Positions 33,278-39,200 of a stretch of DNA of 64,000 nt are shown here, piece by piece (within the stretch, counting starts at the first letter, position 1; each line of letters opens with the position of its first letter). The stretch is from Scenedesmus sp. PABB004 (taxonomy: Eukaryota): contig JABVCE010000020.1 of assembly GCA_014905635.1 (NCBI GenBank), positions 248,001-312,000 of the forward strand. The letters run 5' to 3'. Both the position numbers and the translations under genes were made by a program. The notes under the pieces are model-generated. The model was not told where the DNA came from, made no database searches, and worked only from the letters and a program-made list of their open reading frames with translations.

Positions 33278-36200
33278 GCTGCTGCTGTGCGCCTCCAGCG
33301 TCCAGGCGCAGAACGGTGGGTGCCGGCCCGGCCAGCGGCGTGCGGGCGTGAAGCGCAGCCGCGAGGACGCCGCGAGGGCGCCACGACGCACCGGGTGGCG
33401 CAGCCGGCGCGGGCGCGCAGCATCAGCGCCGGCGCCCGCGGCGGCGCCGGCGGCGGAAGGTCGCGCGCCGCCGGCCGCCGCGGCCCGCTCTGCTCATGCC
33501 GCAGCGCCGCCCGCCCCGCAGACACGGCCATCAGCTGTTTCTCCGACCTGCTGCAGACCACGGACACGGGCGGCGATGGCACCGAGACCGCCGCGCCCGG
33601 CAAGTTTGGCGGGCAGGACGCGCTCGTCACGTTTGCCTACACGCCCGGCGAGGACGTGTGCAAGCTCAGCACCTTCACCGACATCGCGGCCCCGCCCGGC
33701 AAGACGTTCACGTTTGGGCCGCTGATCACGTCGGTCTGGTCCTCGGCGCCGGCCGGCCTCGTGAGCGCGGTCAGCAGCATCGTGCTGACGCAGCTCTCCG
33801 TGAGGCAGGGCACGCAGGGCACACGTGCGTGCGCGCGCGCGCGGGCTCGCGCCGCCGTCTTGCGCGCCGCTGCGCAGGCCGGCGCGGGCGCGGGCGGCGC
33901 GGCAGGCCCTCGGCCCCGGCGGCGGCGGCGGCCGCTGCGCCAGCCGGCGTGGGCGCGCGCGGCGCGCGGCGCCCACCCCGGCCCGCCCCGCGCCCCGTGC
34001 TCCGCGCGCAGGGGCCCTGTACGTGGCCGCGACGGTGCAGGTCACGCCCACGCAGTCGTTCGCGTTCCGCCTCGGCCTCAGCGACAACCGGCCGCGCCTG
34101 ATCGAGTTCACCTACCCCCAGGTCGTGAACTTCAACCAGATCCTCGCGGCGTGCGGCCTCAACATCCAGACCGACCTGTCGCAGTACGTGGTGCTCTCCA
34201 ACCCCTCCTTCCGCTTCGTGCCCGACGCCAGGGTCAACGGGACGTCCCTCGGACGTGAGTGACGGCGCGCGCGCGCGCGCGCGGGGCAGCGGCCGGCAGC
34301 CGGCGGCGCCGCGTGCGCGCGCAGCGGCAGACGCGGGCGCTGCCGCCGCCGCCGCGCAGCGTACGTGGACGTCGACGGCACGGAGCTGGCGCCCAACTCC
34401 TTCCTCCTCTCCGCCAACCTGGGCCTGCCCTCGCTCGGCATCCCCAACGACTCCAAGGTCTCGGCGTATCTCAGGCTCAAGACCGCCCCGGAGAGCGGCG
34501 TCGACGAGGCCGCGCTGGAGTGGACCACCAACTTCACGCCCTTCACCGGCCTCAACCTCAGGCGCCTCGCGCTGAGCATCAAGCCCACGGACAGGCTCTA
34601 CGTGAGCGCCGCGCCGCGCCGCCGCAGCAGCCGGTGCCGCGCACCGCCACGGGCGCCCGGCCGCGTCCACACGCACGCTCACCTGGCCGTGCTGCGCCGC
34701 GCCACCGCGCGCAGAGCGGCGAGGCCAGCGGCAGCGTGGTGGGCATCCCCGTTGCGATCACGGTCCAGATCGATGGCACCAAGAACGGCTCCGACTCGCT
34801 GAGCTTCACGGCCACGACCCAGGTGCGCTGGCTGCTGCACTCGCTGCACTGGCGCTGCGCGCGCAGTCGATGCGCAGCTGCGCAGCTGCTCAGCTGCAGC
34901 CGTGTGTTCGGCCGGCTGCACAGTACTGTGCTGACGCGCGGCGCCCGCGGCCGACCGCAGAGCGTTGCGGCCAAGCCTGTGGTGCAGCAGCTCTGGCCGA
35001 GCGGCACCATCCCCACGACCATCGACGACGCCCTGACTGGCCTGTCGCTCCCGGCCCTGGACATCTCGTACGCCTCGAGTGAGCGCCCGCGCGCCTCCCT
35101 GGGGCGCCCTGCATGCGCCAGCGCTAGCGCCGCCACGCCGCGCGCTGGGCCGCCGCGCGCTGGGCCGCCAGCAGGTTCAAGCTGCCGACTAAATCTCGCC
35201 AACCCTTGAACCGCAGGGCGCCTGACGTTCATCGCCACCACCGTCGGCGGCTCGCGCTTTGTGTCGATCAGCGACGGCGCGCGGATGCGCATGCTGGAGC
35301 TCAGCATCTCGGGCAGCAAGACCCTGACCGAGCTGCTGACCGGCCTGGGCGCGACGTTCCCCGCCGACACCGGCGGCATCATCACGTTCAGCAACCCCCT
35401 GGTCCGCTACGTCTTCGGCAACTCCTGTGAGCGCCGCCGCGGCCGCAGCCGCCTGGCCAGACAGGGCCTGCAGCGGCCGCCGGCGACGCCCGCCCCGGCC
35501 CGCCGCCCCGGCCCACGGCTCGCCGCCCCGCCCCGCCCTGTTCCGCCCCGCCCCGCAGCCATCGACTTCCAGGGCGCGACCTACCCCGCGGGCCTGTTCC
35601 TGCAGCTGGGGCTGAACATCGACGCCATCAACATGCAGAACGGCCTCGTGACCATCGCCGCGCTCAACAACGCCGGCGGCAGGGTCGAGAACGTGACCAT
35701 TGAGGTGCGGCGATGCGCGGCTGCGAGCGCGTGCCCCTGCGGCGCATGAGCAGTCGGCGCGCAGCGCACGCCCTCGGCCGAGCCGACCGTTGACCACCGC
35801 CGCGCCTCCACGACGTCGCGCCGCAGTGGACTGGCACTCTGCCCATCGTGCAGCACGTGACCGTCACGCGCCTGGCAATCAGCTCGTTCGGCCAAGTCGG
35901 CCTGGTGAGGCGGCGCAGCACCTCGCCCGGTCCACGCGGCCGCGGCCCAGCCCAGGCGCGACCGCACTGACCGCTCGCCCGCCGCTGCCGCGACCGCTGC
36001 CCCCAGGTCATGAACGCCCAGGGCGTGCTAGCTACCGTGCCCGTGTCCGTCACCGCCACGCTGTACAACAGGGCGCAGCAGGCCCTGGGCAAGCCCCCGA
36101 TGGAGCTCACGGCCACCGCCACGGTGAGCCGCTGGCCAGGCCGCGCCGCGGCACACGACTTCGTCCGCCGAACGCCGCGGCTCACGCGCTGCCGCCGCGT

Positions 36201-39200
36201 GGCGCCGCCCCGCGCGCGCGCAGGACATCAACGTCGGCCGCATCATCTCCACCGTGTGGCCCGCTACGCCTGGGCCCATCGTCACCATTCTCGACCCCAT
36301 CCGCTTTGCGCGCCTCCAGATCACATACAGCAGGACCGGCGGCTTTGGCATCGCCGGCACGCCCGACCTCTCCGGCGTGCCCGACCTCGTGTAAGTCTGG
36401 GTGGCGCGCGCGCGCGCTCGGCTGCTGCTGCTGCCGGCTGCCTGGCCGTGCCCCGCCGCGCTCTGCCGCGCCGCGACTCCCTGCCCACGCGCCCGTCCGC
36501 CGCCCCGTGCGCGCTCGCAGCAAGGTGCTGGACTTCCTGAAGCTGGGCAACGACGCGGTGCAGCTGGCCGTGGTCGACGGCAAGATGAGCCTGCGCGTGG
36601 CCAAGACCTGGACGTTCAGCCCCGGCAAGCCGTTTCTCGGCCCCGCGTCGGTCGGCTTTGCGCTGGCGCTCGAGCAGCTCAGCGCCGGCGTCGCCATCTC
36701 CCTCAGGGCCAACTTCAACAGCACGATCGTCATCCGTGAGTGGCGGCGCCGCCCACCTGCCGCGCGGCCTCTGCCGTGGCAAGCAGCACTGCGGGCCCCG
36801 CCCACCCCGCCCGCCCGCCTGCCCGCCTGCGCCGCACACACACAGCCATCTTCGAGAACCCCAATGTCAACGTGGAGCTCGGGGTGCGCCAGCGCGCTCG
36901 CCGGCGGCCGCGCCCCGGCCGACCTGCGCGCGCGGCCGCGCCGCGCCGCGTGCCCCCTCACCGCCCACCGCCGCCCCGCTCCCTGCCCCACAGGCGCTCG
37001 TGCAGTTTGCCACCGGCGGCGGCCTGCAGTTTGGCGTGTCGGCGGCGTTCCGCGGACGCATGTCCCTCAAGTGAGTGCGCCGCCTGGCCGGCGCCACCGC
37101 CTGTGCCGCCGCCGCGCGTCGGCTGCTGATGCTGCCTGCGCCGCCGCGCGCGGGCTGCCGCCGCCGCCGCTCACGCCGCCGGCGCGTGTCGCCGCCAGGG
37201 GCTTCCCCTTCGTGGAGCTCAACGTGCTCGCCGGCAGCCTCGTCGTCGGCGTCAGCCCGCTCTCGATCACCCGCGCGTCGCTGCAGGTCGAGGGCCGGCT
37301 CGTGCAGACGCAGATCACGACCTTCCTCCTCTATGACGCCAACGCCGGCGCGTTTGGCTTCAGACTCACCATCGACAACTTCAGCCTCCAGGACACGCTC
37401 GCCGCGATCGGCATCAACGTCAACCTCGGCGTCGCCAACGTCCAGATCCGCAACGCGCTCGTGCAGTTTGCGACCGTCGCGGTGCGCGAGGGCACCGTCT
37501 CCATCCCCCAGGGCTTCCGCGTCAAGGGTGAGTTCTACCTCTTTGGCATCAAGGCCATTGTTGACTTCTCGATGGACCCCACTGACGGCGTGAGCTTCAG
37601 CGCGGTGCTCGACTTCACCGAGCTCAACAACGCGATCTTCACGGCCATCGAGACCGGCCTGGCCGCGTGAGTGCCCCCGCGAGCCGCGCCGCGCCGCGCC
37701 GCGGGCTCTGCTCGGCCGGCCCCCGCCCAGGTGCTGACGCCCTCCCGCGCCGCCGGTCCCGCGCGCAGCCTCAAGATCAACCTGGCCGCGATCGGCATCA
37801 ACATCCGCAACATCTTCAGGGTGGACCGGATCGGGGTCGATCTGGTGCTGCGCAAGTCGGAGCAAAGCTTCGGCTTTGCCCTCAAGATGGTCCTCCTGGG
37901 CCTGAACATCGACTTCAGCTTCAACGTGGTGCGTGTCGCGGCGCGTCGACTCGCCGCCCCACGGCCGCTGCGCACTGGCGCGGGCCGCCGCCGCCGCCAC
38001 ACGCACGCGCGCCCACGGCCGCCCGCTGCGCCGCGCCCCCCGCAGAGGTCTACCGGTGCCAGCTTCATGACGGACGCCATCTTTGGCAAGGTCAAGGAGT
38101 TCTTCACCGGTGCGGGCCGGGGCTACAGCAAGCGCACACGCGCCAGCGCACGCGTGCCCGCGCCCGCGCAGGCAGCGCGCGCTCACGCGCCGCCGCCGCC
38201 GCTGCCGCGCAGCCGCGTGCACGCGCGAGTCGTACGACCGCGGCGCCGGCACCGTGCCCACCGGGTGCGCCTCGGGCCTCGAGGAGTTCAGCAGCCTCTG
38301 CTACAAGCCCTGCACTCAGAACTGGCAGTACGGCGTGTACGGCAAGGACAACATCTGCTACCAGCGCTGCCCGCCCGGCTACGACGACGACGACCGCGTC
38401 GGCCAGCGCGGTGCGGCAGCGCGAGCAGGCGCCAGGGGCGCCGCGACGCGGCCGCGCAGGGCGCTGCTGGCTGCGGCCTCCGCGCGCGGCGCTCACCGCC
38501 GGCGCCGTCCGCCGCCGCCGCTGCCGCCCCCCAGGCCTCACGTGCAGTACCGTCGCCTGCGACGCGCCCCAAATCAAGCGCGCCCTCATGTGCTACGACC
38601 CCTGCCCCGCGGGCTTCGAGACCGACGGCGCGGCGCTCTGCTATGAGATCTGCCCCGTCGGCTGGAGCACGGTGCTGCTCAACTGCCAGCGCTGGGCCTG
38701 CAACGGCGACGAGGACGTGAGCGGCGCCGCTGCAGCTCGTCCTGCGAGCGGCCGGCCCGCCCCGCCAGCCTGTCTGCGTGCGCGCCCGCACACGCCCGCG
38801 CTGACGACCCCGCCGCGCGCGCTCTGCCGGCCGGCCGCAGGACAACGGCGCTGGCCTCTGCTACAAGAAGTGCAACCCCGGCTTTACCAGCGACGGCGCC
38901 GCCCTGTGCCTGGGCGGCTGCAACCCTGGCTACGCCACGCACCCGCTCACCTGCTGGCGCGGCTACGATACCTACGGCAAGTGCTGCAGGCACTGGTGGT
39001 TCGGCTGCCGCTGCTGCGGCTGCGACCGCGGCGACTACTACGACGCCGGCTGCTTCTGCGCGCGCGACGCGCACGCGTACGGCCGCGACAGCTACTGGCG
39101 CGGCAGCCGCACCAAGCTCACCAGCTACACCAAGGCCAGCCGCATCCCCGGCCAGAAGTCGGCGATCAAGAGCTTCACTCGCCTGCGCGAGGGTGAGGCC

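What the first reader, a model, noticed from the sequence alone, without database searches (positions are those of the whole stretch)
33520..38110. About 900-aa secreted amphipathic beta-strand region with internal repeats, fused to chitin-binding-like modules
Seen: Cys-poor, alternating hydrophobic/polar strands with recurring units. One set is GPLITSVWSSAPAGLVSAVSSIVLTQLSV / KPVVQQLWPSGTIPTTIDDALTGLSLPALDI / GRIISTVWPATPGPIVTILDPIRFARLQI; another is QILAACGL..LSNPSFRF / ELLTGLGA..FSNPLVRY / DTLAAIGI..IRNALVQF. Inference: a repeating beta-groove or taco fold (AsmA/TamB/VPS13-like lipid bridge) or a membrane-active sheet, aimed at chitinous targets such as fungal or chytrid parasites or grazers by C-terminal CBM14-like domains. 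I do not recognise a characterised protein with this architecture.
Basis: partly seen in the sequence, partly recalled or inferred. Interest (0 to 1): 0.74.

Follow-up and report, generated by a model that had tools for sequence, protein, structure and literature searches.

The report
Secreted algal beta-repeat, chitin-binding protein
This is one real gene of a green alga for a large secreted protein that joins a repeated, beta-strand-rich domain of a family nobody has described to four animal-type chitin-binding modules; its fold and job remain unknown.

Summary
Window 33237-40960 (+) is one 23-exon gene, identical to NCBI KAF8059395.1 (hypothetical protein HT031_005200, Scenedesmus sp. PABB004, 1652 aa). 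The flagged span 33520-38110 is exons 2-17, residues 27-944.

- **Beta region:** it has 3 Cys and 1 His in 920 aa. It is beta-amphipathic (z 5.1 against shuffles).
- **Repeats:** there are two ~220-aa units that were duplicated together with their introns, then a ~390-aa conserved "cap" that starts like a third unit.
- **C-terminal half:** a disulfide-rich module (eight C-x3-C motifs) and four CBM14-like modules follow. The CBM14 call rests on Pfam and on solved chitotriosidase chitin-binding domains.
- **Conservation:** the whole architecture is collinear in Chlamydomonas and Edaphochlamys orthologues and on raw metagenome DNA, so it is one gene.
- **Family:** the beta region matches no Pfam, NCBIfam, PHROGs or PDB sequence. 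All named relatives are chlorophyte algae, with 1-6 or more units and other lectin partners.
- **Lipid-bridge idea:** profile comparisons with TamB and DUF6603 were negative.

My best reading is a secreted glycan-binding surface or matrix protein with a structural beta-unit array. The scan's index held no earlier look-alike.

The parts
33237..33315 (+). Exon 1: start codon and signal-peptide-like leader (MARSYLPLLVAALALLLCASSVQAQN).
   Evidence: It is the only strongly hydrophobic stretch of the protein. It lies inside the inverted duplication.
33521..33715 (+). Non-repeated N-terminal piece, residues 27-91, with 2 of the region's 3 Cys. It is poorly conserved.
   Evidence: Identity to 4 orthologues is 0-24%.
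33716..34978 (+). Beta unit 1, residues about 92-331, spread over 5 exons (introns included in the span).
   Evidence: The unit-2 HMM hits residues 130-327 at E 4e-17. hhalign of unit 1 against unit 2 gives 95.5%. Its introns map onto unit 2's introns.
34979..36235 (+). Beta unit 2, residues about 332-552. This is the unit type found in 1-6 copies per protein at my threshold among relatives.
   Evidence: The unit length of 219 aa comes from the hydrophobicity autocorrelation of Hariotina P0006 (0.43 at lag 219).
36236..37232 (+). Cap, first part (u3, residues 553-725). It opens with the unit-start motif GRIISTVWPATPGP and is the best-populated part of the family alignment.
   Evidence: 34 of 36 rows of A1 cover it. 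Motif 92 vs 553 scores 46, reached by 0 of 682 windows. Its conserved columns are P, G, F, L, A and K.
37233..38217 (+). Cap, second part (u4, residues 726-946). It holds the LAAIGIN motifs at 779 and 873 and includes the large 468-nt exon 37200-37667.
   Evidence: DNA repeat D3 (37382-37421 and 37766-37805, 83% identical) is.
38218..39547 (+). Disulfide-rich module, residues 947-1262, with eight C-x3-C-x2-3-[GNQ][YFW] motifs. It is the most conserved part of the protein.
   Evidence: Identity to 4 orthologues is 42-47%. Nearly all its Cys are invariant in 8 orthologues. No significant family or PDB match: EGF1_RECK 0.066 and Antistasin 0.5; R-spondin E 2-9.
39548..40879 (+). Linker plus four CBM14-like modules (residues 1315-1367, 1384-1432, 1459-1556, 1574-1624). 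The third carries a ~45-aa Ala-rich insert.
   Evidence: Pfam CBM_14 scores 32.7 bits on exon 40403-40957 (cut-off 22.1) and 19.3 bits on exon 39329-39979. The orthologue profile hits the solved chitotriosidase chitin-binding domain at E 8.9e-7.
40880..40960 (+). Short Pro/Ser/Lys-rich tail (ends ...SAPKPSPKP) and the stop codon. There is no hydrophobic C-terminal segment.
31479..33312 (.). Inverted duplication (arms 31479-32235 and 32577-33312, with 341 nt between them). It gives this gene and its divergent minus-strand neighbour near-identical 5' flanks and leader exons.
   Evidence: 98-99% complementary. In one search, the ~660 nt before the ATG differ by 1 substitution and one 21-nt indel.

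Best explanation
The gene encodes a secreted, non-enzymatic, modular glycan-binding protein of the algal cell surface or extracellular matrix.

- A cleavable leader sends it into the secretory pathway (inferred).
- The N-terminal 920 residues are an all-beta array made of a ~220-aa unit. The unit is present twice, followed by a conserved ~390-aa cap that begins like a third unit with a large insertion.
- Relatives carry 1 to at least 6 units, so I read the array as a length-adjustable structural stalk or scaffold (inferred).
- The conserved disulfide-rich module and the four CBM14 modules form the binding end. They hold N-acetylglucosamine polymers such as chitin or a chitin-like glycan, either in the alga's own wall or on another organism (inferred from the known activity of CBM14 domains).

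Shown here: the gene structure, the repeat anatomy, the CBM14 identity, conservation of the architecture across chlorophyte algae, and the absence of any known-family match for the beta region.

Inferred: secretion, the structural role, and the ligand.
For: One gene with a standard structure:
- My own exon-chaining model and the deposited protein agree, apart from two tiny exons.
- 21 of 22 introns resolve as GT..AG, 100-206 nt long.
- GC3 periodicity follows the exons.

Extracellular signature:
- A leader-like N-terminus and no other hydrophobic segment.
- 11 NxS/T sequons.
- 59 Cys after residue 946, nearly all invariant in 8 orthologues.
- Leader-like starts, by eye, in 4 of 8 orthologue models.

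CBM14 identity:
- Pfam gives 32.7 bits on the last exon.
- Orthologues score 71 bits (Edaphochlamys) and 44.8 bits (C. incerta).
- The orthologue profile hits solved chitotriosidase-1 chitin-binding domains: 6so0 at 8.9e-7 and 5hbf at 1.7e-5.

Structural rather than catalytic beta region:
- Columns conserved at >=75% are P, G, F, L, A, K, N or I (plus an alignment artefact at 49). There is 1 His in 920 aa.
- No enzyme family matched.

Modular, length-variable array:
- At my threshold there are 5 units in Hariotina P0006, 6 in Gonium P0003 and 2 here.
- The Hariotina units cluster together, which indicates lineage-specific expansion.
- Unit 1's introns after aa 129, 209, 289 and 325 map within 2 residues of unit 2's introns at 365, 435, 510 and 548 (4 of 4). 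The phase is the same in the 3 pairs I could resolve.

Partner swapping typical of surface lectins and adhesins:
- The same beta domain occurs with Jacalin (P0005, E 4.8e-13).
- Below-cut-off hits link it to TSP1-like (P0011, P0018) and Ephrin_rec_like (P0035) modules.
- P0035 is a Chlorella protein that its source names 'cysteine-rich surface'.

Conserved end to end at 28-31% identity with C. incerta and Edaphochlamys.
Against: - No fold was obtained, so 'structural stalk' is a default reading, not a demonstrated one.
- No expression or protein-level evidence was seen. The protein is not in the main-text table or the one held supplement of a Scenedesmus maternal cell-wall proteome.
- On the whole protein, Pfam CBM_14 scores 21.0 bits, just under the 22.1 cut-off.
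- The modules carry an unusual C-x4-5-C-x-C start, and one module has only 4 Cys.
- Passages I read report chitin synthases in green algae only for Trebouxiophyceae, namely Chlorella and Picochlorum (PMC5122149). An endogenous chitin ligand in a Scenedesmus or Chlamydomonas wall is therefore not established. I could not check this genome for a chitin synthase because no genome is held.
- None of the 11 sequons is positionally conserved in any of the 7 orthologues.
- A 900-aa conserved domain is a lot of protein for a mere spacer.
Confidence: 0.55

Rival explanations
1. It is a chitin-targeted defence effector. The CBM14 modules dock the protein on chitin-walled enemies such as aphelid or chytrid parasites, fungi or grazers. 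The amphipathic beta region then acts on the enemy's membrane or wall, for example by oligomerising into a sheet or pore.
For: - The beta region has long amphipathic strands and low charge.
- One family member pairs the domain with a Jacalin lectin. From memory, lectin plus beta-pore-former fusions such as natterin-like proteins exist; I did not check this here.
- Chlorophycean algae are not reported to make chitin in the passages I read (PMC5122149).
- Aphelid parasites of Scenedesmus are scored by staining with wheat germ agglutinin, a chitin-binding lectin (PMC9343445 passages).
- The same window holds a papain-family protease gene followed by LysM exons, and LRR protein genes.
- The genes come as tandem or neighbouring pairs in Chlamydomonas, Edaphochlamys and a metagenome contig.
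Against: - No aerolysin, ETX/MTX2, MACPF or other pore-former family matched any of the 36 members, even at E<=10.
- A variable number of tandem 220-aa units is unusual for a pore former.
- No infection-induced expression data were seen.
- A dual RNA-seq paper on a related alga and an aphelid mentions EGF, lectin, LRR and LysM genes in the passages I read, but no CBM14 genes (PMC8657485).
Confidence: 0.15
2. The beta units are themselves glycan-binding or glycan-active beta-sandwich or beta-helix domains. The protein would then be a multivalent polysaccharide cross-linker, or an enzyme, of the wall.
For: - The unit size of ~219 aa and the all-beta prediction fit the size of jelly-roll lectin-like domains as I recall them. 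This was not tested.
- The domain associates with other carbohydrate-binding modules.
Against: - No CBM, lectin, glycoside hydrolase or lyase family matched at E<=10 or in NCBIfam.
- Apart from K632 and N794, the conserved columns of the beta region are non-polar (P, G, F, L, A, I), and there is 1 His in 920 aa.
Confidence: 0.12
3. It is a repeating-beta-groove (AsmA/TamB/VPS13-like) lipid conduit working outside the cell. It would carry hydrophobic wall precursors from the plasma membrane to a wall layer, where the CBM14 modules anchor it.
For: - Long amphipathic beta strands in series and a rod-compatible repeat architecture.
- Scenedesmus walls have an algaenan-containing outer sheath (abstract of PMC11839794).
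- RBG proteins are known to be very divergent in sequence.
Against: - The defining features read in PMC12066543 are an N-terminal chorein domain, 6-17 five-strand taco repeats, and membrane-contact-site targeting.
- No Chorein, AsmA, TamB or VPS13 Pfam hit in 36 members.
- hhalign against TamB gives <=0.2%.
- The N-terminus looks like a signal peptide, not an anchor or a chorein domain.
- The family is also present in Chlamydomonas, Gonium and Chlorella.
- No secreted RBG protein appears in the passages I read of that one review (PMC12066543).
Confidence: 0.05
4. It is a gene-model artefact: two neighbouring genes, one for a beta-region protein and one for a Cys-rich chitin-binding protein, wrongly joined.
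For: No transcript evidence could be obtained.
Against: - Only 103 nt, with GT..AG ends and a phase that keeps the frame, separate the two parts.
- There is no leader or start codon context for a second gene.
- The same order and spacing is seen in 7 orthologue models and in three unannotated metagenome loci.
Confidence: 0.03

Closest known systems
Chlamydomonas and Edaphochlamys orthologues, which UniProt names 'Chitin-binding type-2 domain-containing protein': C. reinhardtii CHLRE_08g363100v5 and 08g363150v5, C. incerta HXX76_004489/90, C. schloesseri HYH02_011766, E. debaryana HYH03_014402/03
   Same: The architecture is the same end to end: units, cap, Cys-rich module, CBM14 modules. Identity is 28-31% and collinear.
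   Different: They have longer N-termini and come as tandem pairs; only one copy lies in this window. All are uncharacterised. No paper in the searched library holds their identifiers. Supplementary tables of other papers could not be searched.
Animal peritrophin-A / CBM14 proteins and the chitin-binding domain of human chitotriosidase-1 (PDB 6so0, 5hbf)
   Same: They are secreted and carry tandem Cys-rich ~50-aa CBM14 modules. There is sequence similarity to solved domains and to Pfam PF01607.
   Different: Here the modules follow a 920-aa beta-repeat region and a 316-aa disulfide-rich module. They start with an unusual C-x4-5-C-x-C. The host is a green alga not known to make chitin.
Bridge-like lipid transfer proteins: RBG proteins (VPS13, ATG2, BLTP1-3) and bacterial AsmA/TamB
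   Same: Long series of amphipathic beta strands in a repeated arrangement.
   Different: There is no chorein, AsmA or TamB sequence signal. The protein has a secretory leader and disulfide-rich extracellular modules and is low in charge. The fold was not tested.
Other members of the same undescribed algal domain family: Gonium GPECTOR_12g379 (P0003), Hariotina P0006 and P0014, Edaphochlamys Jacalin protein P0005, Scenedesmus HT031_000100/101, Chlorella sorokiniana 'cysteine-rich surface' PRW60360.1
   Same: They share the ~220-aa unit and the u3-u4 cap.
   Different: Unit number differs (1 to at least 6 at my threshold). The partner modules differ: Jacalin, weak TSP1-like, weak Ephrin_rec_like, or none. 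In P0003 and P0005 the domain lies at the C-terminal end.
Pfam DUF6603 (giant bacterial proteins of unknown function)
   Same: It is the only named family near the query in the language-model Atlas search. The scores were 0.78 and 0.82, and 24% of the cluster's members carry it; the tool calls such rows 'often chance'.
   Different: No Pfam hit. hhalign against 5 DUF6603 sequences gives at best probability 2.4%. I treat it as unrelated.

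Membership tests
CBM14 / peritrophin-A chitin-binding domain (Pfam PF01607) | Match to the family HMM above Pfam's gathering score. | tested here: met
   Exon 40403-40957 alone scores 32.7 bits against the 22.1 cut-off, in 2 stretches. Exon 39329-39979 scores 19.3 bits and the whole protein 21.0 bits, both just below the cut-off. Orthologues score 71 and 44.8 bits.
CBM14 / peritrophin-A chitin-binding domain (Pfam PF01607) | Sequence similarity to experimentally solved CBM14 domains. 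| tested here: met
   The profile of 8 orthologues hits chitotriosidase-1 6so0_A at E 8.9e-7, 5hbf at 1.7e-5 and 8in3 at 5.5e-6 (two stretches). Chitin binding beak protein 7bwe scores 0.049.
CBM14 / peritrophin-A chitin-binding domain (Pfam PF01607) | Six-cysteine framework of the module. | tested here: inconclusive
   Three of the 4 modules have 6 Cys, spaced C-x4-5-C-x-C-x20(66)-C-x9-C-x11-12-C. One module has 4 Cys. The canonical spacing is recalled from memory and was not compared formally. The Pfam matches cover only profile positions 12-49 and 17-46 of 53.
CBM14 / peritrophin-A chitin-binding domain (Pfam PF01607) | Binding of chitin. | not testable with these tools
   This needs a pull-down of the recombinant C-terminal region on chitin beads.
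Repeating-beta-groove bridge-like lipid transfer proteins (VPS13/ATG2/BLTP; AsmA/TamB) | N-terminal chorein-type domain, or AsmA/TamB sequence signature. | tested here: not met
   0 of 36 family members hit any such Pfam model at E<=10. hhalign of 7 sub-alignments against 20 TamB sequences gives probability <=0.2%, where the control gives 100%.
Repeating-beta-groove bridge-like lipid transfer proteins (VPS13/ATG2/BLTP; AsmA/TamB) | Repeats of five antiparallel strands curved into a taco with a hydrophobic interior (PMC12066543 passages). | not testable with these tools
The Atlas holds no model.
Repeating-beta-groove bridge-like lipid transfer proteins (VPS13/ATG2/BLTP; AsmA/TamB) | Bridges two membranes: an anchor or adaptor sites at both ends, in a cytosolic or periplasmic location. 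| tested here: inconclusive
   The sequence argues against it. It has a short leader with an AQA-type end, no other hydrophobic segment, and a disulfide-rich C-terminal half with CBM14. Location was not measured.
Pfam DUF6603 (PF20248) | Match to the family HMM, or profile-profile similarity. | tested here: not met
   No hit in 36 members. hhalign against 5 DUF6603 sequences from loci L118-L124 gives a best probability of 2.4% at E 0.02. An earlier run with 9 partly wrong-strand ORFs gave <=0.1%.
Beta pore-forming toxins (aerolysin / ETX-MTX2 and the like) | Family HMM match. | tested here: not met
   None among the 26 families listed at E<=10 for 36 members. The fold was not testable.

The most novel reading that the evidence does not exclude
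The ~220-aa unit and its cap are a new extracellular beta-sheet device found only in chlorophyte algae. It would be membrane-active or lipid-binding, and interchangeable lectin modules (CBM14 here, Jacalin elsewhere) would deliver it to the surface of chitin-walled parasites or grazers. It would then be an algal innate-immunity effector of a kind not yet described.
Probability: 0.12. Interest if true: 0.8.

Novelty: new variant of a known kind. Interest (0 to 1): 0.42.

Why it matters
Green microalgae are ecologically and industrially important, yet their surface and defence proteins are barely known. This finding defines a large, conserved domain family that carries no annotation. The search of 1.84 billion representatives gave 87 hits, and every named one is a chlorophyte.

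The family's anatomy is clear:
- a ~220-aa unit in variable tandem number;
- a fixed cap;
- swappable glycan-binding partners.

It is also odd that algae not known to make chitin keep four animal-type chitin-binding modules on this protein. That points either to an unrecognised GlcNAc polymer in their walls or to recognition of chitin-bearing enemies such as the aphelids and chytrids that crash algal cultures.

Chlamydomonas reinhardtii has a tandem pair of orthologues, Cre08.g363100 and Cre08.g363150, so the question can be tested directly in a model organism.

Tried and rejected
- **Structure.** The Atlas holds no model of P0001 or P0007. No fold search was therefore possible.
- **Expression.** No whole genome is held.
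- **Atlas feature hits.** Unnamed Actinomycetota clusters scored 0.88-0.95. I discounted them because recognition was low (1450) and both sides are G+C-rich and Ala/Gly/Val/Thr-rich.
- **DUF6603 lead.** I fetched the family from Actinomycetota genomes. It was found in 2 of 5 and 4 of 151 genomes searched. hhalign did not support a link. For one search I kept 5 of the 9 loci, those whose ORF matched the L118 reference at E<=1e-5.
- **TamB lead.** The family was found in 25 of 41 genomes. I used 20 of 26 loci, those matching the reference at E<=1e-10. hhalign was negative.
- **PDB sequence searches.**
  - For the beta region: profile A1 gave 0 hits, P0006 gave 0, and P0014 gave 1 chance hit at E 2.2.
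  - Cys-rich exon 38841-39191 gave only a V-ATPase hit at E 0.023.
- **Family libraries.** NCBIfam and PHROGs gave nothing meaningful.
- **The search for homologous proteins with A1** returned only the query, because candidates overflowed.
- **The search for related loci.** With A1 it could not run, for lack of a conserved stretch. With A2 in viral contigs, 0 of 48 pattern matches were relatives.
- **Self-BLASTP** found no repeat; more sensitive tests did.
- **Hypothesis that u3 and u4 are plain further copies of the unit.** hhalign did not show this (probability <=3.8%; P0006 was removed from the rows first). Only the motif-level, collinear echoes are supported.
- **Literature.**
  - 0 papers hold DUF6603, Cre08.g363100, Cre08.g363150, KAF8059395, PNW79689 or PNW79690.
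  - In one search the protein identifiers (XP_001696023, HT031_005200, A0A835W3E5) had no occurrence in the 20 papers listed; those papers hold only 'g363100', in crop gene names.
  - The CBM14 or peritrophin plus alga or Chlamydomonas searches gave nothing on this family.
- **Earlier findings of this scan.** None near this place or like these sequences.

Full report
**What the DNA is.**
- The window is 69-83% G+C throughout. It shows the strong third-position G+C periodicity of a eukaryotic, intron-rich genome.
- The 155-aa translation of the largest exon (37200-37664) is 100% identical to one database protein. That protein is the 1652-aa 'hypothetical protein HT031_005200 [Scenedesmus sp. 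PABB004]', accession KAF8059395.1, stored here as P0001.
- Passages of a comparative-genomics paper give this alga a 39.8-Mb genome at 78.5% G+C (PMC12571836), which fits the window.
- No whole genome is held for the window. I therefore have no transcript evidence.

**Gene structure.**
- I built my own model before seeing the deposited one. It chains GT/AG sites by codon-usage score from the ATG at 33237 and gives 25 exons ending at the stop at 40958-40960.
- The deposited protein maps onto 23 exons. The two models differ only in two tiny exons of mine (33906-33948 and 38769-38777).
- 21 of 22 introns resolve as GT..AG with GTGAG or GTGCG donors and mostly GCAG acceptors. They are 100-206 nt long.

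**Checking the observation.**
- All the quoted motifs are present.
- Residues 27-946 have 3 Cys and 0.1% His. They are rich in L, A, G, T, V and S.
- The beta-amphipathic moment exceeds 200 shuffles by z 5.1. The helical moment does not.
- The only strongly hydrophobic stretch is the N-terminal leader. That it is a cleaved signal peptide is my reading by eye; I ran no predictor.
- There are 11 NxS/T sequons, 9 of them in residues 27-946. None is positionally conserved in 7 orthologues.

**Repeat anatomy.**
- Self-BLASTP found nothing, but more sensitive tests did.
- Smith-Waterman between residues 27-336 and 337-586 scores 93, against 38.8+-6.9 for shuffles (0 of 200 reach it).
- An HMM of unit 2 (about 331-553) hits residues 130-327 at E 4e-17.
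- hhalign of unit 1 against unit 2 gives 95.5% (Hariotina protein P0006 was removed from the rows first).
- The unit is a true building block:
  - the HMM finds 5-6 tandem copies in Hariotina P0006 and about 6-7 in Gonium P0003;
  - P0006's hydrophobicity autocorrelation peaks at lag 219 (0.43).
- The HMMs were built from alignments that contain one copy from these proteins. Only the extra copies are independent evidence.
- In this gene the unit was duplicated with its introns:
  - the four introns of unit 1 (after aa 129, 209, 289, 325) map to within 2 residues of unit 2's introns at 365, 435, 510 and 548;
  - unit 2 has one extra intron at 483;
  - the three pairs whose phase I could resolve agree: phases 1, 0 and 0.
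- The remaining ~390 residues (u3 553-725, u4 726-946) are the best-conserved and best-populated part of the family alignment. 34 and 15 of the 36 rows cover them.
- As wholes, u3 and u4 are not demonstrably copies of the unit (hhalign <=3.8%).
- They do carry the unit's two landmark motifs in the same order:
  - the start motif at 553 matches the one at 92 with score 46 (0 of 682 background windows reach it);
  - the LAAxGxN motif at 776 echoes that at 167 (1 of 595) and recurs at 868 (0 of 595).
- I therefore read the cap as a third, heavily modified unit with a ~150-200-aa insertion. This is inference.

**The C-terminal half.**
- Residues 947-1262 hold eight C-x3-C-x2-3-[GNQ][YFW] motifs. 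This is the most conserved part, at 42-47% identity to four orthologues, against 20-34% for the beta units and cap.
- It matches no family significantly. Weak hits are EGF1_RECK and Antistasin and R-spondin furin-like repeats at E 2-9.
- Four CBM14-like modules follow.
  - Pfam CBM_14 passes its cut-off on the last exon (32.7 bits against 22.1).
  - It is just under on exon 39329-39979 (19.3 bits) and on the whole protein (21.0 bits).
  - It is strong in orthologues: 71 and 44.8 bits.
  - A profile of 8 orthologues hits solved chitin-binding domains of human chitotriosidase-1: 6so0 at 8.9e-7 and 5hbf at 1.7e-5.
- The third module has a ~45-aa Ala-rich insert that the two orthologues I aligned pairwise lack. 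Its codon periodicity looks coding.

**One gene or two.**
- The last beta-region exon and the first Cys-rich exon are separated by a 103-nt GT..AG intron in phase 1.
- BLASTP against C. incerta (E 7e-148) and Edaphochlamys (E 2e-156) is collinear across the junction.
- On three unannotated metagenome loci (62% G+C) the same order appears on raw DNA with intron-sized gaps.
- I consider the fusion real.

**Relatives.**
- phmmer of residues 27-946 against 1.84 billion cluster representatives found 87 proteins at E<=1e-3, 37 at <=1e-10 and 10 at <=1e-30, self included.
- I looked up the clusters of 20 of these hits.
  - Every hit with an organism name is a chlorophyte alga: Edaphochlamys, Chlamydomonas incerta, Gonium, Hariotina, Chlorella sorokiniana, and Scenedesmus sp. 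PABB004 paralogues.
  - Further orthologues from C. schloesseri and C. reinhardtii came from a separate search.
  - The rest are unnamed fragments from metagenome or read-archive contigs. One carries a source annotation ('predicted RNA binding protein') that looks mistaken.
- Partner domains vary: CBM14, Jacalin (E 4.8e-13), and below-cut-off TSP1-like and Ephrin_rec_like hits.
- No relative was found in viral contigs.
- No paralogue of the beta domain lies elsewhere in the window.

**Is the beta region a known family?**
- No library gave a hit.
  - Pfam on 22 exon translations found nothing for the beta-region exons beyond three sub-threshold hits, the best at E 0.026.
  - Pfam on the whole protein and on all 36 members of alignment A1 at E<=10 also found nothing for the beta region.
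  - NCBIfam, PHROGs and PDB sequences, searched by profile and by single proteins, gave nothing either.
- I chose A1's 35 homologues from the 86 non-self hits for length and coverage.
- The language-model Atlas gave only unnamed bacterial clusters, with low recognition. Its nearest named family was DUF6603 at 0.78-0.82.
- I tested DUF6603 by fetching the family from Actinomycetota genomes. hhalign gives at best 2.4%.
hhalign gives <=0.2%, with a 100% positive control.
- Conserved columns are P, G, F, L and A, plus K632 and N794. This argues for a structural rather than a catalytic domain.

**What could not be done.**
- Whether the sheet forms a groove, a pore-former fold or ordinary sandwiches is therefore open.

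**Mechanism.**
- My best reading (0.55) is a secreted, non-enzymatic, modular glycan-binding protein of the cell surface or matrix.
  - The beta-unit array serves as a stalk or scaffold whose length varies between lineages.
  - The disulfide-rich module and four CBM14 modules hold a GlcNAc polymer.
- The target is uncertain.
  - Passages of PMC5122149 report green-algal chitin synthases only for Chlorella and Picochlorum.
  - Aphelid parasites of Scenedesmus are scored by staining with wheat germ agglutinin, a chitin-binding lectin (PMC9343445).
  - A foreign target is therefore possible.
- That supports keeping the defence-effector rival alive (0.15).
- The lipid-bridge reading (0.05) fails every sequence-level feature I could test against the description of RBG proteins in PMC12066543. 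Its defining structural feature remains untested.

**Novelty.**
- The protein is deposited as 'hypothetical'. Orthologues are labelled only by their CBM14 domain.
- No searched paper main text mentions them. Supplementary tables of secretome, wall-proteome or transcriptome papers could not be searched in general and may hold them.
- The one relevant Scenedesmus wall-proteome paper does not list the protein in its main-text table or in its one held supplement.
- I rate it a new variant of a known kind: a modular secreted lectin or adhesin built on an undescribed domain family.

Noticed in passing
window 31479-32235 and 32577-33312: A ~760-nt inverted duplication (98-99% complementary, 341 nt between the arms) gives this gene and its divergent minus-strand neighbour almost identical 5' flanks, 5' UTRs and leader exons. 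The ~660 nt before each ATG differ by 1 substitution and a 21-nt indel. Divergence starts in the second half of the leader exon, and identity resumes at the splice donor. This could be recent gene conversion, a promoter-plus-signal-exon duplication, or an assembly artefact.
   Followed up: partly
window 28059-31554, minus strand: By my exon chaining, the neighbour gene encodes a leader, a Cys-rich exon, an exon with a below-cut-off Xlink (hyaluronan-link) match (23.5 bits against 27), and then about nine one-exon C..C..W..C modules. Of the 5 module exons I scanned, 1 passes Pfam Sushi (28.7 bits). The 3' end of my model, below 28080, is unreliable.
   Followed up: partly
window 18173-21351, plus strand: Papain-family cysteine protease exons (Peptidase_C1, 57 and 30.3 bits) are followed on the same strand by exons with LysM matches (23.6 bits, and 17.2 bits below cut-off). 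This may be a protease fused to a chitin- or peptidoglycan-binding module, about 12 kb from the CBM14 gene. I did not check whether it is one gene.
   Followed up: no
window 1077-3083, 4986-6999 and 50640-52189, plus strand: Three look-alike genes for leucine-rich-repeat proteins. The first two open with the same Cys-rich AACSDCRAGYGRA... piece. The stretches at 5832-6131 and 50991-51416 pass the Pfam LRR families; the first copy was read by eye only. A Cys-rich tblastn hit of Chlorella protein P0035 lies at 50134-50322.
   Followed up: no
window 42649-42760: A perfect-looking (TGT)37 microsatellite (98% matches). It reads as long poly-Asn, poly-Val or poly-Leu runs inside open frames on both strands.
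   Followed up: no
window about 40450-40600 (residues about 1483-1527): An Ala-rich ~45-aa insert sits inside the third CBM14-like module and is absent from the Chlamydomonas and Edaphochlamys orthologues. Third-position G+C periodicity says it is coding rather than a retained in-frame intron, but only transcript data can tell.
   Followed up: partly
loci L153 and L154 (one 50-kb metagenome contig); also the tandem gene pairs in C. reinhardtii, C. incerta and Edaphochlamys: The family tends to occur as two neighbouring copies: CHLRE_08g363100/363150, HXX76_004489/90, HYH03_014402/03, and two copies on one metagenome contig. This window holds a single copy.
   Followed up: partly
window 25543-27299, 44399-45660 and 62817-63086: Other genes seen: a TatC-type translocase (55.1 bits), a subtilase (Peptidase_S8, 54.2 bits) and a class 3 lipase (29.6 bits). 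No Rfam family reaches its gathering score anywhere in the window.
   Followed up: no
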